Numbered from the stretch's first letter, positions 1 through 49,530 are shown. The stretch is DNA of 64,000 nt from Gaiellaceae bacterium (GCA_035653275.1 DASRCE010000002.1:13267-77266); one strand, 5' to 3'. Notes: generated by a model from the letters alone, not told the origin. Made by a program: numbers and translations.

Positions 1-1335
1 GATCGGGCGGTCTTCGAGCAGGGGATCCCGACGCTCGGCATCTGCTACGGCGCGCAGCTGCTCGCACTCGAGCTGGGCGGCCGCGTCGAGAAGACCGGAG
101 CCGGCGAGTACGGGAAGGTGTCGATGCGCGCGCACGGCGACGGGCTCTTCGCGTCGCTGCCGTCGGAGCAGACGGCCTGGATGTCGCACCGCGACACCGT
201 CGTCGCGCCGCCGGCGGGGGCCCGCGTCGTCGCCGAGTCGGAGCACACGCCCGTCGCGGCGTTCGCGGACGACGACCGGAAGCTGTACGGCGTCCAGTTC
301 CACCCGGAGGTCGTGCACACGCCACACGGCCAGCAGGTCCTGAAGAACTTCCTCTACGAGCTCGCCGGCGCGGCGCCAGCGTGGACGCCTGCGGCCGTCA
401 TCGAGGAGCAGGTCGAGCGGATCCGCGCGCAAGTCGGGCGCGAGCGGGTGCTGTGCGCGCTCTCGGGCGGCGTCGACTCGGCGGTCGCCGCGCTTCTCGT
501 GCACAAGGCGGTCGGCGACCAGCTCACGTGCGTCTTCGTCGACCACGGCCTGCTCCGTAAGGGCGAGGCGGAGCAGGTGGTCGAGACGTTCGGCGGCGTC
601 TTCCACGTGCCGCTCGTCCACGTGCAGGCGCAGGAGCGGTTCCTCGCGAGGCTCACGGGAGTCACGGAGCCGGAGGAGAAGCGGAAGATCATCGGCCAGG
701 AGTTCATCCGCGTCTTCGAGGAGGAGGCGCGGAAGCTCGGCGACGTGCGGTGGCTCGTCCAGGGGACGCTCTACTCCGACGTGATCGAGTCGGGCGGCAC
801 GGACGGCGTCGCCGAGACGATCAAGTCGCACCACAACGTCGGCGGGCTGCCCGCGGACATGCGGATGAAGCTCGTCGAGCCGCTCCGGCTCCTGTTCAAG
901 GACGAGGTGCGGCGCGTCGGCGAGGAGCTCGGCATGCCAGAGCGGATGGTCTGGCGGCAGCCGTTCCCCGGGCCGGGGCTCGCGATCCGGATCATCGGCG
1001 AGGTGACCCACGAGCGGCTGGAGACGCTGCGCGAGGCGGACGCGATCCTCCAGGAGGAGGTGCGGAAGGCGGGCCTCTACCGCGAGCTCTGGCAGAGCTT
1101 CTGCGTCCTGCCCGCGATCCGTTCCGTCGGCGTCCAGGGCGACTCGCGCACGTACGGGTACCCGATCGCGATCCGGGCGGTGACGTCGGAGGACGCGATG
1201 ACGGCCGACTGGGCGCGCCTCCCGTACGACCTGATCGAGACGATCGCCTCGCGGGTCGTGAACGAGATCCCGGCCGTGAACCGCGTCGTCCTCGACGTCA
1301 CCTCCAAGCCTCCCGCCACGATCGAGTGGGAGTGA
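1..1335 (+). CDS. guaA: GMP synthase (glutamine-hydrolysing), 5' end outside the window
   Basis: Frame 1 is open from base 1 ([21 protein letters not shown], amidotransferase active-site region). It continues into the ATP-pyrophosphatase motif SGGVDSAV and a C-terminal GMP synthase dimerisation region ending IEWE. Confidence 0.95.
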
Positions 1336-1354
1336 ACGCGGGTGCGTGCCGCTC

Positions 1355-1380
1355 GGCACCGTGCCAAATGGCACCGTGCC
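1355..1380. promoter_or_regulatory. Two tandem copies of the 11-bp palindrome GGCACCGTGCC separated by AAAT; candidate operator
   Basis: GGCACCGTGCC occurs at 1355-1365 and again at 1370-1380, a 15-bp direct repeat with one mismatch. It lies 20 nt upstream of the ATPase start at 1400. Confidence 0.4.
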
Positions 1381-1399
1381 GAATGGTACGATGTAGTCG

Positions 1400-2542
1400 A
1401 TGCCGCACCAGAACCCCTTCCGCTACGGCCACCTCGCCCTCGACGCGGCGTTCACCGACCGCGACCGGGAGGCGCGCGAGCTCGCGCGCGACATGTGGAA
1501 CGGCCAGGACGTCGTCCTCGTCGCTCCGAGGCGGTACGGCAAGTCGTCGCTCGCGTGGCGTGCCGCGAGCGACGTCATCGCGAGGCACGGCATGCGTGTC
1601 GGCTACGTCGACCTCCTCGCAGCGCCGTCGAAGGAGAAGTTCGCCGAGAAGCTCGCCGCCACGATCTACGAGGACGTCGCGCCGCAGCTCGCGCGCGCCC
1701 GCGACCGCGTGACGTCGCTCCTCTCGGGGCTGCGCATCAACCCGTCCGTGACGTTCGACGCGCACGGCGGCGTCTCGTTCTCTTTCGCCGCCGGCCACGC
1801 GTCGCAGGACGTCGACGCGACGCTCGAGCGGCTGTTCGAGCTGCCGGCGCAGCTCGCGGCCGAGCACAAGCTCCGCGTCGCGATCGTATTCGACGAGTTC
1901 CAAGAGCTCGTCGAGCTCGATCCGCGCCTGCCGGCGCTCATGCGCTCGGTCTTCCAGCGTCAACCCGAGGTGGCGCACGTCTACCTCGGAAGCAGGCGGC
2001 ACATGATGGACAAGCTCTTCAACGACGAGCACGAGCCGTTCTGGCGCAGCGCGAAGCAGATGGAGATCGGCCTGATCGACCCCGAGGCGTTCCGGCCGTA
2101 CATCGAGTCGCAGTTCGAGCGGACGGATCGCGGCCTGGCGGCAGGCGTCGCCGACCGTGTGCTCTCCGTCACGCGAGGCCATCCGTATGCGACGCAGGAG
2201 CTGTGTTACTTCGTCTGGGATGCCGTCCCCGAGGGGTTCTCGGCGACGTCGTCGGACGTCGACCGTGCGCTCGAGACCGTCCTCCGATCCGAGCACGCGC
2301 ACTTCTCACGCATCTGGGAGAAGGCCGCCCGCGGGCAGCGCCTCGTCCTGCAGGCGCTCGCGGCGCAGCCGAACGTACCGATCAGCGAGGAGTACCGCCA
2401 CCGGCACGGCCTCCCGCCGGACGCGACGGTGCGCAAGGCGCTGCGGACGCTGGCGGCCGACGAGCTCGTTGCGCGCGACGCCTCCGGGTACCGCATCAGC
2501 GAGCCTTTCCTCGCGGAGTGGATCCTGAGGTTCGAATCGTGA
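1400..2542 (+). CDS. AAA+ ATP-binding protein (archaeal-ATPase/DUF234-like)
   Basis: Walker A APRRYGKSSL, Walker B AIVFDEFQEL, and a C-terminal winged-helix-like tail. Confidence 0.8.
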   Translation: MPHQNPFRYGHLALDAAFTDRDREARELARDMWNGQDVVLVAPRRYGKSSLAWRAASDVIARHGMRVGYVDLLAAPSKEKFAEKLAATIYEDVAPQLARARDRVTSLLSGLRINPSVTFDAHGGVSFSFAAGHASQDVDATLERLFELPAQLAAEHKLRVAIVFDEFQELVELDPRLPALMRSVFQRQPEVAHVYLGSRRHMMDKLFNDEHEPFWRSAKQMEIGLIDPEAFRPYIESQFERTDRGLAAGVADRVLSVTRGHPYATQELCYFVWDAVPEGFSATSSDVDRALETVLRSEHAHFSRIWEKAARGQRLVLQALAAQPNVPISEEYRHRHGLPPDATVRKALRTLAADELVARDASGYRISEPFLAEWILRFES

Positions 2543-3162
2543 CGCCGTACCGGGTCGAGACCGAGCGCCTCGTCCTCCGTTGCTACGACCTCGAGGACGC
2601 GCCGCTCCTCAAGGACGCCGTGGACCGCAGCCTCGAGCATCTCCGGCCGTGGATGCCGTGGACGCCCGACGAGCCCGAGCCGCTCGACGAGGTGTACGAG
2701 CGGCTGCGCAGCTTCCGCGCCCAGTACGACCGCGACGAGAACTGGGTCATGGGCGTGTTCGCGCGCGACGAGTCGCGGTGCCTCGGCGGCACCGGGCTGC
2801 ACCCGTCCAAGGAGGGCGACGAGGGTCGCGAGATCGGCTACTGGATCGCTGCGGACGCCGTCGGCCAGGGCTACGCGACCGAGCTGGCCGCCGCGCTGAC
2901 GCGGGTCGCGTTCGAGGTGCTCCACCTCGACCGCGTCGTGATCCGCGTCGACCCCGCGAACGTCCGCAGCGACCGCGTCCCGGCGAAGCTCGGCTTCACG
3001 AAGGAGGCGACGCTCCGCCGCCGCCTCCTGTCGAAGCAAGGCTCGGACCTGCGCGACGCGAACATCTGGACGATGTTCCGCTCGGAGCTCGCCGGCTCGC
3101 CGGCGGCGCAGTACGCCTACGTCGCGTACGACGCCCTCGGCCGAGAGCTCGCGCCCGCCTGA
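2539..3162 (+). CDS. GNAT family N-acetyltransferase (RimJ/RimL-like)
   Basis: The GTG start overlaps the upstream stop (GTGA). It has an ERLVLR N-terminus, a GYWI..QGYATE acetyl-CoA-binding region and the GF.KEA motif typical of Acetyltransf_3. Confidence 0.85.
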   Translation: MTPYRVETERLVLRCYDLEDAPLLKDAVDRSLEHLRPWMPWTPDEPEPLDEVYERLRSFRAQYDRDENWVMGVFARDESRCLGGTGLHPSKEGDEGREIGYWIAADAVGQGYATELAAALTRVAFEVLHLDRVVIRVDPANVRSDRVPAKLGFTKEATLRRRLLSKQGSDLRDANIWTMFRSELAGSPAAQYAYVAYDALGRELAPA

Positions 3163-3366
3163 GCGTCACAAAGCTCCCCCTCCGGGCATGTCGTTGCGAG
3201 ACCCGTCCGGTGGCAGCCACCGTCGCGGACCGTCCACAGCGGGGACCTGTCCTCGGGCCCTCCGACGGGCTCAGGGGGACAGGGAGTCGCCGTCCGGCGG
3301 GGCCGAGGGCTGTGGAGGAAACGCAATCGGAGGGACATGTCCGCGTCCCTGTCACGAGCTGCGGCG

Positions 3367-4110
3367 CTACGCGCGGGGCCCGCCTGCGACGTAGACCACC
3401 TGGCCGCTCACGTACGACGCGTCGTCGGAGCAGAGGAACGCGATCGTCGCCGCGACGTCCTCCGGCCGCCCGACGCGGCGCAGCGGCACGTGCTCGGCCG
3501 CCGCCTGCACGAACTGCTCGAACGGCACTCCGACGCGCTCCGCCGTCTGCCTCGTCATGTCCGTTGCGATGAAGCCGGGCGCGACGCAGTTGACGTTGAC
3601 ATTGAACGGACCGAGCTCGATCGCGAGCGTCTTCGTCATCCCCTGCAGGCCCGCCTTCGCCGCCGAGTAGTTCGTCTGCCCGCGGTTCCCGAGCGCCGAG
3701 GTCGACGAGATGAGGACGATCTTTCCGCTCCGCTGCTCGACCATGTGCGCCTGCGCCGCGCGCACCGCGAAGAACGTCCCCTTCAGGTGCGTGTCGACGA
3801 CCGCGTCCCAGTCGTCGTCGGTCATCTTGAAGAGCAGGTTGTCGCGGATGATCCCCGCGCACGTGACGAGGATGTCGAGCGATCCGCCGCGCGACACCGC
3901 GGCCTCGACCGCCGCCTCGACGTCGCCGCGGCTCGTGACGTCGCACCCGACGGCGTGCCCGCCGATCTCCTCGGCCGTCCGCCGCGCGGCCGGCTCGTCG
4001 AAGTCGGCCACGACGACGGTCGCGCCCTCCGACGCGAGCAGGCGCGCCGTGGCCGCGCCGATCCCCTTCGCGCCGCCCGTGACGAGCGCCGTCTTCCCCT
4101 CGAACCTCAT
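3367..4110 (-). CDS. fabG: 3-oxoacyl-ACP reductase type short-chain dehydrogenase
   Basis: TGGAKGIG cofactor motif, NYSAAK catalytic YxxxK motif, 247 aa. Confidence 0.88.
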   Translation of the reverse strand: MRFEGKTALVTGGAKGIGAATARLLASEGATVVVADFDEPAARRTAEEIGGHAVGCDVTSRGDVEAAVEAAVSRGGSLDILVTCAGIIRDNLLFKMTDDDWDAVVDTHLKGTFFAVRAAQAHMVEQRSGKIVLISSTSALGNRGQTNYSAAKAGLQGMTKTLAIELGPFNVNVNCVAPGFIATDMTRQTAERVGVPFEQFVQAAAEHVPLRRVGRPEDVAATIAFLCSDDASYVSGQVVYVAGGPRA

Positions 4111-4139
4111 CGCGCGGCTGACCGTATACGGTCCGTCGC

Positions 4140-4736
4140 ATGGAGCTTCGGGAGATCCTGCGCCGGCGGCGAATGCACCGCACGTTCCTCACGGACCCGC
4201 TGCCGCGCGAGCAGGTCGAGCGGATCGCGCACGTGATCCGCCACGCGCCCTCCGGCGGGTTCAGCCAGGGCGGGAGCATCGTCGTCGTCACCGAGGACGA
4301 AACGCGTGCGGCGATCGCCCGCGCCTTCGGCGACGAGCACTACTCGACCGGCGGGCGCAACTTCATCGCCGACGCGCCGGTCCACATGGTGATCTCGGCG
4401 AACGAGACGCTCTACCACGCGCGCTACAACGAGCCGGACAAGCTGCGCGCGACAGGCGGCGTCGAGGTCACCTGGCCCGTTCCCTACTGGTTCGTCGACG
4501 CGGGAGCGTTGATGATGCTCGTGCTCCTCGCGGCCATCGACGAGGGTCTCGCCGGCGCGTTCGTCGGCCACCCGGACCAGAAGCGGATCTTCGACGAGCT
4601 GCTCGGCCTGCCCGAGGACGTGGTCCCGATCGGGCTCGCGCTGATCGGGAAGCCGGGCGGGAGCCCGCCCGTCGGATCGCGGCTCAGCTCGCGCCGGCGG
4701 CCGCTCCCCGAGGTGGTCCGCTGGCAGCGATGGTGA
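4140..4736 (+). CDS. Nitroreductase family protein
   Basis: N-terminal RRRRMHRTF and a HAPSGG motif typical of the nitroreductase fold; 198 aa. Confidence 0.8.
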   Translation: MELREILRRRRMHRTFLTDPLPREQVERIAHVIRHAPSGGFSQGGSIVVVTEDETRAAIARAFGDEHYSTGGRNFIADAPVHMVISANETLYHARYNEPDKLRATGGVEVTWPVPYWFVDAGALMMLVLLAAIDEGLAGAFVGHPDQKRIFDELLGLPEDVVPIGLALIGKPGGSPPVGSRLSSRRRPLPEVVRWQRW

Positions 4737-5757
4737 CGCGCGGGTAACGCGCGCGCACCTCGTCGACAAACGCCGCCAGCCGGTCGGCGATCGCCGCGTC
4801 CTCGATCTCCAGGACGTTCTCGGCGTTCTTCTCGCCGCTCCGCGACAGGTTGAACGAGCCGACGAACACCGTGTCGTCGCAGACGCACACCTTGGCGTGC
4901 ATGAAGTCGTGCACGGTGCCGCTGCCGTACGGCGTCGACTCCTTGCCCGTGAACGGCCCCGCCATCACCTGCTCGAGGAGGGGCAGCTTCCACGCCGCGT
5001 TTCCGTTCTCGGACCACTGGTGGACGACCTCGCGCACCTGCGTCGCGTCCACGCAGCCGGCGAGGTCGACGCTCCCGTCGGAGATCACCTGCGCGAGCGT
5101 CCCCAGCACCGGCCCGGTCGTGATCACCGGAGAGCAGATCCGGACGCGCCGGCGTGCGCGCCGGATGATCTTCGCGATCCGCGACGAGAGGTCCTCGCCG
5201 TGGCCGGGCGTGAACCAGGCTCGCACGCCGTCGTCCCAGCGCGGATCGACGAAGCCGCTCTTCATCACGTCGCCGGTCGACCAGAGCTGGTCGAAGTCGA
5301 TCCCGTACGCCTTCGCGATCGCCGGCGAGTGCACGACGGCGACGACGTTCTCCTGCCGCGACCAGGAGTCGTTCGTCCAGTTCATCGACCCGGTCCAGAC
5401 CGCTTCGCCGTCGCGGACGACGTACTTGTGGTGCATCAGGTCGGGCACGCCGGCGATCGGCTTTCCCTGGACGGGGAGCGACGCGATCAGCTGGACGTCC
5501 GGCTCCGGCGGCGGCGGCACCGGAACCGGGTTCGCGTGGTCGAGGTTGTATGCAAGGCGGATCCGGACGCCGCGTTCCGCCGCGCCGCGCAGCGACGCGA
5601 CCACGACGTCACGCGCCTCGTCCGAGAGGTTGAAGTCGTACTGCGCGAGGTCGAGAGTCTGCGTCGCGGGGTCGAGGAACGCCGCCACCATGCGCGCGAC
5701 GTCCGCCGGCTGCTGGCCGCCGTCCGTCAGAGTGCGGATCTCGATGCGCTCGCTCAT
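4684..5757 (-). CDS. Phospholipase D-like protein with two HKD motifs
   Basis: HHKYVVRDGEAVWTGSMNWTNDS and HAKVCVCDDTVFVGSFNLSRSG in one 357-aa polypeptide. Confidence 0.85.
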   Translation of the reverse strand: MSERIEIRTLTDGGQQPADVARMVAAFLDPATQTLDLAQYDFNLSDEARDVVVASLRGAAERGVRIRLAYNLDHANPVPVPPPPEPDVQLIASLPVQGKPIAGVPDLMHHKYVVRDGEAVWTGSMNWTNDSWSRQENVVAVVHSPAIAKAYGIDFDQLWSTGDVMKSGFVDPRWDDGVRAWFTPGHGEDLSSRIAKIIRRARRRVRICSPVITTGPVLGTLAQVISDGSVDLAGCVDATQVREVVHQWSENGNAAWKLPLLEQVMAGPFTGKESTPYGSGTVHDFMHAKVCVCDDTVFVGSFNLSRSGEKNAENVLEIEDAAIADRLAAFVDEVRARYPRVTIAASGPPRGAAAGAS

Positions 5758-6265
5758 CGACCGGCTCGCGATTGCCCGGATCGGGCAGACGACGAACTTC
5801 TACCGCGACGGCGCCGGTGCCGCGCTCCGGCGCGCACGGCTCGCCGCGTACCTCGATGCGCGCCGCCGCGCGTCGCTGCTGCTCGTCGGCGAGGCGCCCG
5901 GCTATCGCGGCACCCGGGTCTCGGGGATTCCCTTCACCTCGGAGCGCCAGCTCACCGGCGCGGGGCCCGCGGAGGCGACGGCGACGATCGTCCACCGCGT
6001 TCTCGCCGAGCTGGGCGTCGCCGAGGACGTCCTGCTCTGGAACGTGGTGCCGACGCATCCCGGCACGGAGCGCTCGAACCGTCCGCCGTCGCGCGCGGAG
6101 GTGGCGCAGGGGCGTGCGTTCGCGGAGGAGCTCGCGTGCGGCCGGCGCGTGATCGCCGTCGGCCGCGTCGCGGGCGCCGCGCTCGGCGTCGACGCGGTGC
6201 GCCACCCGTCGCACGGCGGCGCCGCAGCGTTCGCCGCCGGGTTGCGTGCTCTAATCCTCCGATGA
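5744..6265 (+). CDS. Uracil-DNA glycosylase superfamily protein
   Basis: Motif A GEAPGYRG and motif B HPSHGG. The ATG at 5744 is chosen within the long ORF 4850..6265 and overlaps the divergent PLD start by 14 nt. Confidence 0.72.
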   Translation: MRSLIDRLAIARIGQTTNFYRDGAGAALRRARLAAYLDARRRASLLLVGEAPGYRGTRVSGIPFTSERQLTGAGPAEATATIVHRVLAELGVAEDVLLWNVVPTHPGTERSNRPPSRAEVAQGRAFAEELACGRRVIAVGRVAGAALGVDAVRHPSHGGAAAFAAGLRALILR

Positions 6266-7479
6266 CGGACGTCCGCCGGAACGCGCTCCTGCTCGCGCTC
6301 GGGCTCGTGTTCCAGTCGGGGATGATCCAGCTCGCGGTCGCTCTCGGCACGGTGACGATCGTCGCCGTGACGGGCGTCCACAGCATCCTCGGGCTCGGCC
6401 CGGCGGTGTTCCTCGTCGCGGGGGCGCTCGCGGTCGGCCCCGCCGGACGGCTCTCGGACCGGGTCGGCCGGATGCCGGTGATCCGCGGCGGCTACCTCCT
6501 CGGGATCGCGGGCCCGGCGGTCACGGCCGCGGGCTGCGCCTGGCGCCAGGGGGTCCTCGTCTTCCTCGGCCTCGGCCTCTGCGGCGCCGCGCAGACGATC
6601 GTGCTCCTCTCGCGCGCGGCCGCCGCGGAGATGTTCCCGCCCGAGCGCCGCGCGCGCGGCATGTCGATCGTCCTGTTCGCCGTCGTTTCGGGAGCGATCT
6701 GGGGGCCGCTCGTGTTCGGGCCGATGTTCTCCGGACGCGCGCTCGACGCGCACGACCTCACGCTGCCGTGGCTCGCTGCGACGCTCTTCACGACGGCCGG
6801 GTTCCTCGTCTCGCTCGGCGTGCGGCGCGACCCGCGTGACCTGTCGCACGCGTACGTCGCGCCGACGGCGACGAGCCCGCTCCGCGACATCCTGCGGCGT
6901 CCGGGCGTCGCGCCGGCGATGACGGCGGCGGTGGCGAGCTTCGCGCTGATGGCGGGGGTCATGAACCTGGCGGGCTACGTGGCCGTCGGCCACCACCACG
7001 CGCACGGCAGCGTGTTCACGATCATCAGCCTGCACATCGTCGGGATGTACGGGCTCGTGCTCGTCGTCGGGGACGCGATCGACCGCATCGGGCGCCGCCG
7101 CGCAATGGTGCTCGGGCTGGGTGCGATCGCGCTCGCGAACGCCGGCCTCGCCTGGTTCGCCTCGATCGCCGGCATGAGCCTCTGCATGTTCGTGCTCGGC
7201 CTCGGCTGGTGTCTCGCGTACGTCGCCGCGACGACGGAGCTCGTCGACCTCGCCGGGCCCGAGGAGCGCGGCCGTCTCGTCGGCCTCTCAGACCTCCTGT
7301 CGAGCTTCGGTGGCGCCGCTCTGGCGCTCTTCGGCGGCGTCGTCTACACCGGCGCGGGCGGCTCCGTGCCGCTCGCCGGGCTCGCCACCGGCCTCGCCGT
7401 CCTCGCCTCCGCCTGGGTCGCGGGGAACCCTGCTACCATTGCCGCCCGCGGATCCCGTGCGGTCCGCGTTTCTCCGTGA
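6262..7479 (+). CDS. MFS transporter
   Basis: About 12 hydrophobic helices and a [12 protein letters not shown] loop motif. ATGA overlap with the upstream gene. Confidence 0.85.
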
Positions 7480-45437: not shown

Positions 45438-48400
45438 GTGAGCGACGCAACCCAGGCGGTCCTCTTCAACGGCTTGCCGCTGCTGCTCCTCGCCGCCGCG
45501 TACGCGGCGGTGACCGGCGCCGTGCTGCCGGTGCTGTGGCGCGACCGCGCGACGGCGCACCCGCTCGACTGGGCGATCGTGCTGGTGTTCCCGGGGATCG
45601 CGATCGCGGCCGGGATCTTCGGGGTGCTCGTGATCCACGAGCGGCGGCCGTTCGGCGGCCACACGTGGATCTCGTTCGCCGCCTCGCTCGTCGCGCTCGC
45701 CCCGGTCGTGCCGATCCTCCTCCGGTGGCGTGAGCGGGCATTCGTCGCACGCGGCGTGAGCCGCTCCCTGGACGCCGAGGAGCGCGCGTCGACGCGCGAT
45801 CGCGAGATCGCGGCCGTCTCGCAGATCTCCGCCGCGCTGGCCCGTGCGCGCTCGCCGCTCGAGGTCGCGCGCCCGTTGACGGCCCACGTCGCGCGGCTGC
45901 TCGGGGTCGGCTTCGTCGGAATCGCCGTCGTCGACGACGACGGGGCGGAAGCCGAGGGTCTCTACGCGCTCGCGCACGGCGAGGAAGCGGGATGGTGGAC
46001 GGGCATCCGGACCGACCTACGCCACGAGCCGTCCGGCATCGCGAGCGCGTACTTCGACGCGGCGCCCGTGACCGTCTACGACGTGTCGAGCTCGCCGCTC
46101 GTGAGCGCGCGGCTGGCGAAGCTCGTCGGTGCCTACAGCGGCGCCTGGGTCCCGATGATCGCGGAGGAGCGCGTCGTCGCCGTACTCGCGCTCGCGTCGA
46201 CCGACGACAAGCGCACGTTCGCGAACGACGAGCTGTCGCTGTTGCAGGCGGTCGCCGCCGAGGGCGCGCTGGCGCTCGAGCGGCTGCGTTCGGCCAGCGC
46301 GCTCTCCGACGCGCTTCAGCGCGAGCAACGTGCGGCGGAGATCGTCCGCCGCGTGCGCGCGGAGCTCGAGCCCGACGACGTCGTGCGCGTCGCGCGCGAC
46401 GAGCTTCGTGCTGCGTTGAGGCTCGACGCCGTCGCCGTCGACGTCTCCGGCGGCGAGGCGGTCGTCGACGCGCGGCGGGCTCTCCCGCTGACGAGCGACG
46501 AGCAGCACCTCGTCGAGACGGTGCGGTACGAGGTCGGCGCGGCCGTGCGCACGGCGGGGCTCCTCGCCGAGAACCGCCGCCGGCTGGCGCAGCAGGCGGC
46601 GCTGCTTCACGCAGCACAGGTGGTGACGAGCGAGCTCGAGCTCGACGCCGTTCTCGACCGGCTCGTGGAGGAGGTGACGAAGCTGCTGGACGCAGACGCG
46701 GCCGACTGCTACCTCCTCGACCGCGAGCGGAACGTCCTCCGCTGCGCGGCGGTGTACGGGCTCTCGCCGGAGCTCGTGGGGTTCGAGTTCACGCCGGAGC
46801 ACGGCGTGGCGGGCGCGGCGATCGTCGCGATGCGCCCCGTCGCCGTCGACGACTACCAGACGATCGCGGCGCCGGTACCGAACACCGCGTACGAGGGCTT
46901 CTCGCGCGCCCTCGTGGCGCCGATGGTCTGGTCGGGCGAGACGCTGGGCGTGATCGGCGTCGGCGTGCACAACGCGTCGCGGTCCTTCGACGACCGCGAC
47001 GAGGAGCTGCTCGACGCGTTCGCGTCCCTCGCGTCGCTCGCCCTCCGCAACGCCGAGAGCTTCGAAGAGCGCTCGCGCCAGGCGCGCGTGCAGCGCGGCT
47101 TCTACCGCATCGCGTCGCTGCTCGGGGAGCCGCTGTCGTTGGCGGAGGCGTACGACGCGGCCGCGCAGGCCGCCGCCGAGGCGCTCGGCGCGGACTTCGC
47201 GGCCGTCGTCGCCCAGGGCGCCGGCGGCCTCGCGGTCGTCGGCGGCTACGAGCTGCCGCCGGAGGTGCGCGGGCTGCCGATCGCGCGCGCGCTCCTCGAC
47301 GCGGCCGAGGACGGGCACGTTCTCGCTGCGCCTTCGGTCGCCGGCGACGAGCGCTTCGCCGAGGCGTGGCCGGACGTGCCGTTCGCGTCGCTGCTCGCGA
47401 TCCCGGTGCGCGAGCAGGCCGGGCTCGTGCTCGTCTTCTTCAGCGAGGAGCGCAGGTTCGTCCGCGACGACCTCGAGCTCGCGCAGCATCTCGCGGGCGC
47501 GGCACGAGGCGCTCTCGAGCGGAGCCGGTTGTTCGAGGGGGAACGGACGGCGCGCTCGCTCTCGCAGCAGCTGGCGCGCACGGGCAGCCTGCTCGCCACC
47601 GAGCTGGACCCGGCCGCCGTGCTCGAGGCGGTCGTGTCGGAGGCCGCGGAGCTCCTGCACGCGGACGCGGCGGCGCTCGCGTCGCAGGACGAGGACGAGC
47701 TCGTGATCACGGCGGCCGTCGGAGACGGGGCCGACGAGGCGCTCGGCGTGCGTACGTCTGCGACGGCGTGGCCCGCGGGGGACGTCGTGCAGTCGCGGGC
47801 GCCGGTGGCCTACGACGACGCGACGCAGCACGAGACGCTCGCGGAGTCGGACGTCTTCCTCGCGGCCGGTCACGTCGCCTACCTCGGCGTCCCGCTCCGC
47901 GCCCGCGAGGGCGGCACCCACGGTGTCCTGTCGGTGTACACGCGCAACGCGCGCGCGTGGCGCGACGAGGAGATCGAGGCGCTGGTCGCGCTCGCGGCGA
48001 ACGCGTCCGTGGCGCTGACGAACGCCGAGCTGTACCAGCGCGTCGCGCTCGAGCGCGAGCAGAGCGTCGCGATCCTCGCGAACATCGCCGACGGGATCGT
48101 CGCGGTGGACCGCGACGGCCACGTCGTGCTGTGGAACCGAGCAGCCGAGGAGATCACCGGCGTCCCGGCAGTCGAGGCGATCGGACGCACGCCGTCGCAG
48201 GTTCTGCAGCGCGAGCTCCAGTCGGAGCTCGGAGGGACGAACCGGCTCGTCGCGATCTCGCGCGGCGGCGAGGACGTCTGGCTGTCGCTCTCGGAGGCGG
48301 TCATGCGCGACCCGAGCGGCGCGGTGGCGGGTCGTATCTTCGCCTTCCGTGACATCTCGGCCGAGCACGCCGTGGAGCAGATGAAGTCCGACTTCGTCTC

Positions 48401-49049
48401 GACCGTCTCGCTCGAGCTGCGCACGCCGCTGACGTCGATCTACGGGTTCGCGCAGACGCTGCTCCGCGACGACGTCGCGTTCTCCGACATCGAGCGCAAG
48501 ACGTTCCTCGAGTTCATCGCGCGCGAGTCGGAGCGCCTGACGACGATCGTCGACGCGCTCCTCAACGCGGCCCGCCTCGACACCGGCGACCTCGCGGTGT
48601 CGCTCGAGCCGACCGACGTCGCTGCGGTCGTCGCCGACGTCGCCGCGAACGCCTCCGCGTCGCCGAACGGTCACCGGTTCGTCACCGAGGTGAACGGCGA
48701 CGACTGCCGCGCGCAGGCGGACCCGGAGAAGCTCCGACAGGTCCTCGACCAGCTCGTGTCGAACGCCGTCAAGTACTCGCCGGAAGGCGGGACGGTGACG
48801 ATCTCGGCGACGCGGCGCGCTGACGCAGTCGAGGTCGCGGTCGCGGACGAGGGCGTCGGGATCCCGCCGTCGGAGCGCGACCGGATCTTCTCGAAGTTCT
48901 ACAAGGCGGGCGGCGGGCCCGGGACCGGGCTGGGCCTGTTCATCGCGCGCGGGCTCGTGCGGGAGATGGGCGGCCGGATGTGGGTGGAGTCGCAGGAGGG
49001 CACCGGCTCGCGCTTCGCGTTCGAGCTTCCGCCCGCGGAGGATGTGTGA
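45438..49049 (+). CDS. Membrane-anchored multi-GAF/PAS sensor kinase homologue lacking the H-box histidine
   Basis: N-terminal TM helices, about 4-5 GAF-like regions and one PAS domain. The HisKA block reads FVSTVSLELRTPLTSIYGF, where Leu codon CTC replaces the phospho-acceptor His. N, G1, F and G2 boxes are intact. Confidence 0.9.
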   Translation: MSDATQAVLFNGLPLLLLAAAYAAVTGAVLPVLWRDRATAHPLDWAIVLVFPGIAIAAGIFGVLVIHERRPFGGHTWISFAASLVALAPVVPILLRWRERAFVARGVSRSLDAEERASTRDREIAAVSQISAALARARSPLEVARPLTAHVARLLGVGFVGIAVVDDDGAEAEGLYALAHGEEAGWWTGIRTDLRHEPSGIASAYFDAAPVTVYDVSSSPLVSARLAKLVGAYSGAWVPMIAEERVVAVLALASTDDKRTFANDELSLLQAVAAEGALALERLRSASALSDALQREQRAAEIVRRVRAELEPDDVVRVARDELRAALRLDAVAVDVSGGEAVVDARRALPLTSDEQHLVETVRYEVGAAVRTAGLLAENRRRLAQQAALLHAAQVVTSELELDAVLDRLVEEVTKLLDADAADCYLLDRERNVLRCAAVYGLSPELVGFEFTPEHGVAGAAIVAMRPVAVDDYQTIAAPVPNTAYEGFSRALVAPMVWSGETLGVIGVGVHNASRSFDDRDEELLDAFASLASLALRNAESFEERSRQARVQRGFYRIASLLGEPLSLAEAYDAAAQAAAEALGADFAAVVAQGAGGLAVVGGYELPPEVRGLPIARALLDAAEDGHVLAAPSVAGDERFAEAWPDVPFASLLAIPVREQAGLVLVFFSEERRFVRDDLELAQHLAGAARGALERSRLFEGERTARSLSQQLARTGSLLATELDPAAVLEAVVSEAAELLHADAAALASQDEDELVITAAVGDGADEALGVRTSATAWPAGDVVQSRAPVAYDDATQHETLAESDVFLAAGHVAYLGVPLRAREGGTHGVLSVYTRNARAWRDEEIEALVALAANASVALTNAELYQRVALEREQSVAILANIADGIVAVDRDGHVVLWNRAAEEITGVPAVEAIGRTPSQVLQRELQSELGGTNRLVAISRGGEDVWLSLSEAVMRDPSGAVAGRIFAFRDISAEHAVEQMKSDFVSTVSLELRTPLTSIYGFAQTLLRDDVAFSDIERKTFLEFIARESERLTTIVDALLNAARLDTGDLAVSLEPTDVAAVVADVAANASASPNGHRFVTEVNGDDCRAQADPEKLRQVLDQLVSNAVKYSPEGGTVTISATRRADAVEVAVADEGVGIPPSERDRIFSKFYKAGGGPGTGLGLFIARGLVREMGGRMWVESQEGTGSRFAFELPPAEDV

Positions 49050-49080
49050 GGTTCCCCGCCTGCGAGGGATAAGAGGGCGA

Positions 49081-49530
49081 ATGGGAACGAACGCGACGCG
49101 TGTTCTCGTCATCGACGACGAGGCGCCGATCCGCTTGCTCTGCCGCGTGAACCTCGAGGCGGAGGGGATGGACGTGCTCGAGGCCGCCGACGGCCCGAGC
49201 GGGCTCGAGAAGGCACGCGCCGAGACGCCCGACGTCGTCCTCCTGGACGTGATGATGCCCGGCCTCGACGGCTGGCGCGTCGCAGAGGAGCTGCTCGACG
49301 ACCCGCGCACGGAGTCGATCCCGATCGTCTTCCTGACGGCGCGTGCGGAGCTGCGCGACCGCGCGCGCGGCATCGATCTCGGCGGCGTCGACTACGTGAC
49401 GAAGCCGTTCAACCCCGTCGAGCTCGCGCCGCTCGTCCGCGACCTCCTCGACCGGGTCGCGCGCGGCGAGCGGGACGCGCTGCGTCGCGAGAAGCTCACC
49501 GAGCTCCGCGCGCTCCTCGACCGCGAATGA
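49081..49530 (+). CDS. Single-domain response regulator (CheY-like receiver)
   Basis: VLVIDDE, LLDVMMPGLDG, FLTA, and KPF. AAGAGGG SD lies upstream of the ATG. Confidence 0.9.
   Translation: MGTNATRVLVIDDEAPIRLLCRVNLEAEGMDVLEAADGPSGLEKARAETPDVVLLDVMMPGLDGWRVAEELLDDPRTESIPIVFLTARAELRDRARGIDLGGVDYVTKPFNPVELAPLVRDLLDRVARGERDALRREKLTELRALLDRE

What the first reader, a model, noticed from the sequence alone, without database searches (positions are those of the whole stretch)
45438..49530. Multi-GAF sensor kinase whose phospho-acceptor histidine is replaced by leucine, followed by an orphan receiver
The DHp H-box reads FVSTVSLELRTPLTSIYGF (codons tcg ctc gag ctg cgc near 48408..48425). The invariant SHELRTPL histidine is a Leu here, with CTC one transversion away from CAC. 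The N, G1, F and G2 ATP-binding boxes (NAVKYSP, DEGVGIP, FSKFYKA, GTGLGLFIARG) look intact. The downstream single-domain receiver retains its Asp pocket. This is either a pseudokinase or scaffold (as DivL-type proteins use a non-His residue), a kinase using another residue, or a strain-specific inactivating mutation or sequencing error.
Basis: partly seen in the sequence, partly recalled or inferred. Interest (0 to 1): 0.6.

Follow-up and report, generated by a model that had tools for sequence, protein, structure and literature searches.

The report
Sensor kinase family repeatedly losing its histidine
A large membrane sensor of a soil actinobacterium (Gaiellaceae) really lacks the histidine that such kinases phosphorylate, as do about 30 related species, yet its ATP pocket and partner receiver are kept, so it is a working "dead kinase", not an error.

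Summary
The 1203-aa ORF at 45438-49049 has three hydrophobic segments, four GAF domains, PAS, HisKA and HATPase_c. Codon 992 (CTC, 48411-48413) puts Leu where WalK and HK853 have the phospho-acceptor His.

It is not an error or a strain mutation. All 119 other database clusters of this protein carry V, L or M. In one-genome-per-species searches, 30 species of the genus form one clade with V/L/I/M/A, sister to 4 species with His (CAC).

Across the order, the positional orthologue (ispH upstream, receiver downstream) lost His about seven times: aliphatic, Tyr, Arg, Gln three times, Glu. That is 49 of 127 species. Nearly all other related HisKA kinases keep His.

In the His-less lineages the N, G1, F and G2 ATP boxes, the receiver-docking positions and the receiver's Asp pocket stay conserved. 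All domains remain under purifying selection.

Most likely this is a kinase-dead sensor that still binds nucleotide and acts on the adjacent receiver, which another donor phosphorylates. Here ExxT is kept, so phosphatase action is plausible; DivL-like capture of the phosphorylated receiver is the alternative. No activity was tested. It is a new variant of the known pseudo-histidine-kinase kind, of moderate interest.

The parts
45438..49049 (+). Gene for the 1203-aa His-less sensor (GTG start; stop TGA 49047-49049)
   Evidence: ORF and translation; domain content; full-length orthologues in relatives' genomes with no internal stops
45456..45728 (+). Three hydrophobic segments (about residues 7-34, 42-68 and 76-97): a membrane anchor without a large outside domain
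   Evidence: Kyte-Doolittle scan with a 19-residue window, maxima 2.0-2.7
45849..46280 (+). GAF domain 1 (residues 138-281)
   Evidence: Pfam GAF_2 E=2.3e-10 on residues 100-300
46635..47045 (+). GAF domain 2 (residues 400-536)
   Evidence: Pfam GAF_2 E=1.2e-18
47133..47522 (+). GAF domain 3 (residues 566-695)
   Evidence: Pfam GAF_3 E=1.1e-7
47604..48017 (+). GAF domain 4 (residues 723-860)
   Evidence: Pfam GAF_2 E=7.8e-17
48066..48356 (+). PAS domain (residues 877-973); the most conserved part of the protein in the His-less clade
   Evidence: Pfam PAS E=5e-12; lowest dN/dS of all regions, 0.19
48366..48368 (+).
   Evidence: The model shows one continuous helix over 974-1008. H in 20/30 His-less species and 122/133 clusters; R in 74/78 His-bearing orthologues
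48381..48587 (+). HisKA (DHp) domain, residues 982-1050, with the H-box
   Evidence: Pfam HisKA E=2.7e-14; alignments to WalK and HK853
48411..48413 (+). CTC codon of Leu992, at the phospho-acceptor position
   Evidence: Sequence; aligned to the acceptor His of solved kinases; codon comparison with orthologues
48720..49037 (+). HATPase_c (CA) domain, residues 1095-1200, with intact N box (N1109), G1 (D1137xGxG), F (F1151, F1154) and G2 (G1162xGxG)
   Evidence: Pfam E=1.7e-29; these residues are invariant in 133 His-less homologues and kept in the R, Q, E and Y lineages
49081..49530 (+). Single-domain receiver gene. Likely start ATG 49081 behind AGAGGG; the longest ORF starts at 49042 and overlaps the kinase stop
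   Evidence: Pfam Response_reg E=8.5e-27; sequence. Conservation among orthologues begins at TRVLVIDDE. Present downstream in 127/127 orthologue loci; quintet DDDTK in 122, DDDSK in 3, EDDTK in 1

Best explanation
This is a functional, naturally kinase-dead member of an otherwise ordinary WalK/HK853-like HisKA sensor family. One CAC-to-CTC change at the base of a clade within one Gaiellaceae genus removed the phospho-acceptor His, and later single-base steps gave Val, Ile, Met and Ala. The protein can no longer autophosphorylate at the canonical site or donate phosphate to its receiver. It is still a membrane-anchored, GAF/PAS-regulated dimerisation and nucleotide-binding module that docks the adjacent single-domain receiver. 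The receiver keeps its full phosphorylation pocket, so another donor (another kinase or a small-molecule phosphodonor) must phosphorylate it. I infer that the His-less sensor acts as a signal-controlled negative or modulating partner. It would either dephosphorylate receiver~P, with bound nucleotide as cofactor (this protein keeps the E993-x-x-T996 phosphatase motif), or simply capture receiver~P, in relatives where Thr996 is Ala. Shown here: the loss, its age and recurrence, continued selection, and the intact ATP motifs, docking positions and receiver. Inferred only: the lack of autophosphorylation, nucleotide binding, the phosphatase or capture activity, and the outside phosphodonor.
For: Non-His is fixed. 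All 119 other clusters have V, L or M. Thirty species form one clade (98/98; 99), sister to 4 His-bearing species of the same genus. These are positional orthologues, with ispH upstream and the receiver downstream. Selection persists: dN/dS for the DHp-CA region is 0.27 among His-less pairs against 0.40 among His pairs, and 0.19-0.41 for every domain. The ATP boxes are invariant. The positions matching the HK853 rewiring set (A268, A271, T275, V294, D297 in the titles of 4jas and 4jau; mapped by hand from the alignment) read S-G-T-Y-S throughout the family and differ in paralogues. The receiver differs at only one consistent position between His-less and His-bearing lineages. Published biochemistry shows that HisKA phosphatase needs the T/N at H+4 but only partly the His: CrdA~P half-life is 0.7 min with wild type, 2.6 min with H371A, 47.6 min with N375A and 53.5 min alone (PMC3510030). 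ADP stimulates the HK853 and EnvZ phosphatases (PMC7005713), which would explain a conserved ATP pocket. DivL is a precedent for a His-less kinase that binds a phosphorylated single-domain receiver (PMC4211667).
Against: Nothing biochemical was measured. Thr996 is Ala in 15 of 30 His-less species and 18 of 133 clusters, so phosphatase action cannot be the function shared by the whole clade. In HK853 the His is thought to help activate the water for the phosphatase reaction, and PleC H610A loses both activities. Glu993, needed for kinase but not phosphatase action in CrdS, stays invariant in the 42 His-less Gaiellaceae species, which this model does not explain. No phosphodonor for the receiver was identified. 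The dN/dS values are rough, because synonymous sites in this GC-rich genome are biased or saturated.
Confidence: 0.55

Rival explanations
1. DivL-type reversed signalling. The DHp-CA core is purely a detector of the phosphorylated receiver, with no catalysis, and the PAS/GAF/membrane part passes that information to another kinase or protein.
For: His, and often Thr996 as well, are lost while the docking positions are kept. One related family carries Tyr plus Val/Ile (SYVLRTPL), the same His-to-Tyr change as DivL. DivL 4q20 is a strong sequence and fold match (E 2.2e-33; TM-score normalised to the target 0.82). The partner is a single-domain receiver like DivK. Position 977 at the PAS-DHp junction changes from Arg to His, Tyr or Phe in the two largest His-less clades, hinting at altered PAS-DHp coupling. 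The PAS domain is the most conserved part.
Against: DivL binds ATP weakly and does not need it. Here every ATP-binding motif is invariant, which a pure binder does not need. No partner kinase is known. This protein itself keeps ExxT.
Confidence: 0.22
2. It is still a kinase, but phosphate goes elsewhere: to His977, to a Ser, Thr or Tyr, or in trans to the His of another protein.
For: N, G1, F and G2 are fully conserved, and so is Glu993, the kinase-specific acidic residue in CrdS. His977 is enriched in His-less lineages (20/30 aliphatic and 3/7 Tyr, against 2/78 His-bearing).
Against: His977 is absent from 10 of 30 His-less species, and the Arg, Gln and Glu lineages keep Arg there. It lies 15 residues (about 22 A along one helix) from the site the CA domain reaches. 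There is no other conserved His in the DHp. His-less genomes hold no close His-bearing paralogue with which to form a heterodimer; the next-best hit is at most 48% identical, and 38% in a 96%-complete genome.
Confidence: 0.12
3. A relic on its way to loss. The module is dispensable, and the catalytic residues are decaying without any new function.
For: His was lost about 7 times, and Thr996 also in 20 of 78 His-bearing orthologues. No orthologue was found at E<=1e-120 in 9 of 26 sampled genomes of the genus (all at least 90% complete) or in whole genera of the family (0/20, 0/23). One relative (G006) has stops in the N-terminal part.
Against: Reading frames of about 1200 codons are intact in dozens of species. 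dN/dS is no higher than in His-bearing relatives. ATP and docking residues are invariant. The oldest His-less clades span 30 species and 3 genera.
Confidence: 0.08
4. A sequencing or assembly error, or a recent mutation private to this genome.
For: The genome is a 60%-complete metagenome assembly. Logan contigs of the likely source run match exactly on both sides (48074-48404 and 48434-48900), but no listed exact piece spans the codon.
Against: Twenty-two independent sequences carry Leu and 108 carry Val at this position. In species genomes the codon is CTC in 6 and GTC/GTG in 7 of the 18 sampled from this genus. T-bearing contigs at 48412 occur in all four soil runs laid.
Confidence: 0.01

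Closest known systems
DivL of Caulobacter crescentus (pseudo-histidine kinase; PDB 4q20; PMC4211667)
   Same: HisKA/HATPase_c core preceded by PAS. The acceptor His is replaced; the partner is a single-domain receiver; the DHp docking surface is retained. Strong sequence (E 2.2e-33) and fold match. Relatives in a sister family even have Tyr, as in DivL.
   Different: Here the residue is Leu or Val, not Tyr. The ATP-binding motifs are fully conserved, whereas DivL binds ATP weakly. The E-x-x-T motif is kept in this protein. The receiver gene is adjacent in the operon. The sensor is membrane-anchored with four GAF domains. There is no CckA/ChpT/CtrA context. It is not an orthologue of DivL.
PsmA of Streptomyces (histidine pseudokinase; PMC12963549)
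   Same: An actinobacterial HisKA-like protein with PAS domains. The residue at the His position varies between species (E, D, Q, V, Y), as it does across this family.
   Different: PsmA is a hybrid protein with a long disordered linker and its own receiver. Its ATP motifs are not conserved and its H-box lacks D/ExxT/N. The Gaiellaceae protein keeps all of these and has a separate receiver.
WalK/VicK and HK853-type bifunctional HisKA kinases (PDB 4u7n, 4i5s, 3dge)
   Same: Best sequence and structure matches, with the same PAS-DHp-CA layout. The H-box flanks read S-x-ELRTPLTS, and the N, G1, F and G2 boxes match. His-bearing orthologues in the same genus look like normal members.
   Different: The defining acceptor His is missing in this protein and its clade. 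There is no HAMP domain, and the sensor part consists of four GAF domains.
Laboratory K-minus P-plus mutants (CrdS H371A, EnvZ His243 mutants; PMC3510030)
   Same: The His is replaced by a small or aliphatic residue while E-x-x-T/N is kept. Such proteins still dephosphorylate their receiver.
   Different: Those are engineered mutants. This one is a natural state fixed in many species, and half of those species have also lost the Thr.

Membership tests
HisKA-family sensor histidine kinase (canonical, catalytically active) | DHp domain matching Pfam HisKA | tested here: met
   PF00512 E=2.7e-14, 53.4 bits against a cut-off of 26.9, residues 982-1050
HisKA-family sensor histidine kinase (canonical, catalytically active) | Phospho-acceptor His in the H-box | tested here: not met
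   Leu992 aligns with the acceptor His of WalK and with the H260A position of HK853; codon CTC
HisKA-family sensor histidine kinase (canonical, catalytically active) | CA domain with N, G1, F and G2 nucleotide-binding boxes | tested here: met
   PF02518 E=1.7e-29; N1109, D1137/G1139/G1141, F1151/F1154 and G1162/G1164/G1166 are present and invariant in 133 homologues
HisKA-family sensor histidine kinase (canonical, catalytically active) | ATP-dependent autophosphorylation and transfer to a receiver | not testable with these tools
   Needs purified protein and labelled ATP
Pseudo-histidine kinase, DivL type | Acceptor His naturally replaced, with the replacement conserved among orthologues | tested here: met
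   V/L/I/M/A in 30 species and 119 other clusters, forming one clade
Pseudo-histidine kinase, DivL type | Tyr at the acceptor position | tested here: not met
   Leu here. Tyr occurs only in 7 species of another family of the order
Pseudo-histidine kinase, DivL type | Weak or dispensable nucleotide binding | tested here: inconclusive
   At sequence level the opposite holds, since all ATP motifs are invariant. Binding itself was not measured
Pseudo-histidine kinase, DivL type | Phospho-specific binding of a single-domain receiver without kinase or phosphatase activity | not testable with these tools
   Only indirect support: the docking positions and the adjacent receiver are conserved
HisKA phosphatase-competent transmitter (E/D-x-x-T/N motif) | Acidic residue at H+1 and Thr/Asn at H+4 | tested here: met
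   E993 and T996 are present in this protein. Across the His-less clade, T is Ala in 15/30 species and 18/133 clusters
Receiver domain capable of phosphorylation (adjacent gene) | Active-site quintet DD, D, T/S, K | tested here: met
   D25, D26, D69, T99 and K121; the same quintet in 125 of 127 orthologue loci when T/S is allowed
PsmA-type histidine pseudokinase | Hybrid architecture (own receiver, long disordered linker), degenerate ATP motifs, H-box without D/ExxT/N | tested here: not met
   No receiver or linker in the 1203-aa protein. ATP motifs and ExxT are intact. PsmA features are taken from PMC12963549

The most novel reading that the evidence does not exclude
The transmitter of this family may work mainly in a nucleotide-dependent but His-independent way. 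For example, ATP or ADP occupancy of the CA domain could gate capture or dephosphorylation of the receiver, or phosphate could go to a non-His acceptor. Under that reading the acceptor His was already expendable in the ancestor, which would explain why it was lost about seven separate times while the ATP pocket, Glu993 and the docking surface never changed. This would be a mode of two-component signalling not covered by the kinase/phosphatase or DivL models.
Probability: 0.13. Interest if true: 0.8.

Novelty: new variant of a known kind. Interest (0 to 1): 0.5.

Why it matters
Few bacterial pseudo-histidine kinases are described in the papers I could search (chiefly DivL and PsmA), and both have poor or degenerate ATP sites. 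This is a widespread soil-bacterial family in which the same orthologue occurs side by side in four states: His+Thr, His only, Thr only and neither. The ATP pocket, docking surface and partner receiver are held constant throughout. That makes a natural mutant series for asking what a transmitter domain does when it cannot be phosphorylated, and why it still needs nucleotide. There is also a practical point: automatic annotation of such genes as active sensor kinases, and wiring diagrams inferred from them, would be wrong for about 39% of the species that carry this module.

Tried and rejected
Read support. Only Logan contigs were available, not raw reads. The H-box region collects thousands-fold depth from unrelated kinases of the soil community, which explains the T>A signal at 48412. 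The exact-match contigs stop at 48404 and resume at 48434. Direct read support for CTC in this genome is therefore undecided; orthologues settle the question instead.

Alternative acceptor His977. Rejected as a general solution.

Heterodimer with a close His-bearing paralogue. No such paralogue exists in His-less genomes.

Co-variation of the receiver with His loss. None was found beyond I/L at position 111.

A first regex scan for H-boxes in the genome was too loose and was replaced by hmmalign. Two literature calls failed on term syntax.

dN/dS was computed only pairwise (Nei-Gojobori). No branch model was run, and synonymous sites are GC-biased, so the values show constraint but not its exact strength.
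Full report
WHAT IS THERE. The ORF at 45438-49049 (+) encodes 1203 residues. From the N terminus it has three hydrophobic segments within residues 7-97 and then GAF domains at 138-281, 400-536, 566-695 and 723-860. An unassigned stretch lies at 285-400. PAS follows at 877-973, HisKA at 982-1050 and HATPase_c at 1095-1200. The H-box DNA reads TCG CTC GAG CTG CGC ACG. In phmmer alignments to solved kinases, Leu992 falls exactly on the acceptor His of WalK, and the HK853 H260A entry has its Ala there. An AlphaFold model of residues 864-1203 (mean pLDDT 81.7) has the usual PAS, two-helix DHp and alpha/beta CA layout. Its best structural matches are WalK/VicK, HK853 and DivL.

Thirty-one bases downstream, an ATG at 49081 behind AGAGGG opens a single receiver domain. 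The longer ORF from 49042 is less likely, because conservation among orthologues starts only at TRVLVIDDE. The organism is a Gaiellaceae metagenome-assembled genome of 1.5 Mb, 60% complete.

NOT AN ERROR. A search of 5.8 billion proteins returned 119 other clusters at 78-92% identity over the C-terminal third. Every one has Val, Leu or Met at this position, and none has His. In one-genome-per-species searches of the order (41 and 301 genomes) I cut out the C-terminal part of 127 orthologue loci and read the residue.

These are positional orthologues. ispH lies divergently upstream wherever enough flank was fetched, in all four families that carry the gene, and a receiver lies downstream in 127 of 127 loci. 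Within the window's genus, 30 species have V (14), L (13), I, M or A, and 4 species have His. The 30 form one clade (98/98 on 811 columns; 99), sister to the four His-bearing species. The codons fit a single path: CAC in the His-bearing sisters, CTC for Leu, then GTC/GTG, ATC and ATG.

Read-level support in this particular assembly could not be settled. Only Logan contigs were available, and the conserved H-box is swamped by other kinases of the soil community. That no longer matters for the question asked.

THE LOSS IS RECURRENT. Outside this genus most Gaiellaceae keep SHELRTPL, with these exceptions:
- one genus has Arg (6 species, SRELRSPL);
- one genus has Gln (3 species);
- two genera each hold one Gln species next to a His-bearing sister (support 99);
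- one species has Glu;
- a separate family (three genera, 7 species) has Tyr followed by Val or Ile (SYVLRTPL), the DivL-type substitution.

Parsimony on the 131-row tree needs 7 changes. Forcing all 42 non-His Gaiellaceae rows into one clade costs 130 log-likelihood units (AU p = 5e-5). One caveat applies: that group was defined after the trait had been seen. In all, 49 of 127 species (39%) lack His.

This is specific to the family. The other ten HisKA genes found in this genome all have His. Among the 150 best representatives from 1.8 billion proteins, 243 of 250 HisKA hits have His. Of the 7 exceptions, 5 read as this family's own H-box, one is a short spurious hit and one is an unrelated kinase.

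WHAT IS KEPT. In the 133 His-less sequences the Mg/ATP-binding Asn1109, the G1 box (D1137, G1139, G1141), the F box (F1151, F1154) and the G2 box (G1162, G1164, G1166) are invariant. The Arg, Gln, Glu and Tyr lineages keep them too, apart from one long-branch genome. The H-box flanks (L994, R995, P997, L998) are likewise invariant, and so are T999, Y1002, G1003, F1004 and T1007.

The positions that match the HK853 residues rewired in PDB entries 4jas and 4jau (A268, A271, T275, V294, D297; titles, mapped by hand from the alignment) read S-G-T-Y-S in every lineage. The aliphatic clade has in addition Y1026F and S1029R, and the nearest paralogues differ. The receiver keeps DD-D-T/S-K in 125 of 127 loci. 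It is 82-100% identical to the window's receiver in most His-less Gaiellaceae lineages (73-85% in the Gln lineages), and it differs consistently between His-less and His-bearing lineages at one position only.

Pairwise dN/dS is 0.27 for the DHp-CA region among His-less pairs, against 0.40 among His-bearing pairs. It ranges from 0.19 to 0.41 for every domain, sensor part included. These values are rough in a GC-rich genome, but they show no relaxation.

WHAT IS NOT KEPT. Thr996, the H+4 residue that HisKA phosphatase activity needs, is Ala in 15 of 30 His-less species and 18 of 133 clusters. It is Ser, Arg or Gly in the Arg, Gln and Glu lineages, and also Ala in 17 of 78 His-bearing orthologues. 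The family thus contains all four combinations of His and Thr. The window's protein is of the Leu-E-x-x-Thr type.

His977 (SAEH) sits at the first turn of the DHp helix, which runs unbroken from 974 to 1008. It occupies the place of the Arg found in 74 of 78 His-bearing orthologues. It is His in 20 of 30 His-less species, and Arg or Tyr in the rest. Several of the species that lack it sit unresolved at the base of the clade, so it may have appeared after the loss, though the tree does not resolve this.

HOW IT MOST LIKELY WORKS. Without the His there is no canonical autophosphorylation and no phosphotransfer. This is inferred from the known chemistry of the family, not measured. The protein is nevertheless maintained as a regulated, nucleotide-binding, receiver-docking module, and its receiver remains phosphorylatable. 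I therefore think the receiver is phosphorylated by another donor and that this sensor controls it negatively.

Published biochemistry gives two relevant facts. First, a HisKA phosphatase depends on the H+4 Thr/Asn and only partly on the His: the CrdA~P half-life is 0.7 min with wild-type CrdS, 2.6 min with H371A and 47.6 min with N375A (PMC3510030). PleC H610A, however, loses both activities. Second, ADP stimulates the HK853 and EnvZ phosphatases (PMC7005713). A phosphatase-only sensor therefore fits this protein and explains the conserved ATP pocket.

It cannot be the whole story, because half of the clade's species lack the Thr. For those, and perhaps for all, DivL-like capture of the phosphorylated receiver is the better model. 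DivL has no kinase or phosphatase activity and binds DivK~P through the normal docking face (PMC4211667). DivL binds ATP poorly, though, and the other described bacterial pseudokinase, PsmA, has degenerate ATP motifs and no D/ExxT/N (PMC12963549). The strict retention of the ATP site here, and of Glu993 in the 42 His-less Gaiellaceae species, remains unexplained. It leaves room for a nucleotide-dependent, His-independent mode.

RIVALS. A relocated acceptor (His977) is unlikely, for the reasons above. Trans-phosphorylation within a heterodimer lacks a partner: the next-best paralogue in His-less genomes is at most 48% identical. A decaying relic is hard to square with intact 1200-codon frames and invariant motifs across dozens of species. 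Still, the module is clearly dispensable in some lineages, since no orthologue was found at E<=1e-120 in 9 of 26 sampled genomes of the genus.

VERDICT. The thing belongs to the known kind 'pseudo-histidine kinase' but differs from both characterised bacterial examples in three ways: a fully conserved ATP site, a conserved adjacent receiver, and repeated independent loss within one orthologue family. It is a possible alternative phosphodonor, and I did not test it.

Noticed in passing
L022, L023, L025, L028, L127-L129 (family f4 of the same order): The orthologue carries Tyr at the acceptor position, with Val or Ile in place of the following Glu (SYVLRTPL). This is the DivL-type His-to-Tyr change, arising by CAC to TAC, independently of the aliphatic clade. 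L129 is a long branch that has also lost the N-box Asn and the G1 Asp.
   Followed up: partly
L051, L054, L058, L070, L077, L082 (genus g26); L088, L093, L094 (g24); L087 (g14); L064 (g38); L049 (g33): There are further independent replacements of the acceptor His: Arg, Gln (three times) and Glu. Each is combined with Ser, Arg or Gly at H+4. In g14 and g38 a His-bearing sister species already lacks the Thr, so loss of Thr may precede loss of His.
   Followed up: partly
window 48366-48368 (His977): The Arg of the PAS-to-DHp junction (D-I-S-x-E-R) is His, Tyr or Phe in the two largest His-less clades (aliphatic and Tyr) but stays Arg in nearly all His-bearing orthologues and in the Arg, Gln and Glu lineages. 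This may reflect altered PAS-DHp coupling. It remains unexplained.
   Followed up: partly
window 46292-46634 (residues about 285-400): About 115 residues between GAF1 and GAF2 match no Pfam family. This may be a degenerate GAF or a helical linker.
   Followed up: no
window 49042-49083: The longest receiver ORF starts at ATG 49042 and overlaps the kinase stop. Conservation and an AGAGGG site point instead to ATG 49081, so annotated N-termini of this receiver probably vary between assemblies.
   Followed up: partly
genomes G014, G022, G117, G156, G217, G237, G245, G278, G294 (same genus); genera g9, g10, g13: No orthologue was found at E<=1e-120 in nine genomes of the genus that are at least 90% complete, nor in whole genera of the family (0/20, 0/23, 0/7). 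The whole module therefore seems dispensable in some lineages. This holds only for this query and this sample.
   Followed up: no
G006:C5:238774-239697 and L014: In one relative the N-terminal part of the orthologue contains a TGA and a TAG, and the receiver's C-terminus reads out of frame. This is either a decaying copy or an assembly error.
   Followed up: no
window 48376-48443: In soil metagenome contigs this 70-base H-box stretch collects word depths of 1,300 to 7,200, against tens elsewhere, because hundreds of unrelated kinases share it at 85% likeness. Assemblers break contigs here, a caution for variant calls in this motif.
   Followed up: yes
receiver C-terminus, window about 49450-49527: The receiver has a charged helical tail of about 25 residues (RGERDALRREKLTELRALLDRE) in this genus and, in diverged form, in family f4. 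In the f2/f3 loci examined the receiver alignment ends before this tail.
   Followed up: no
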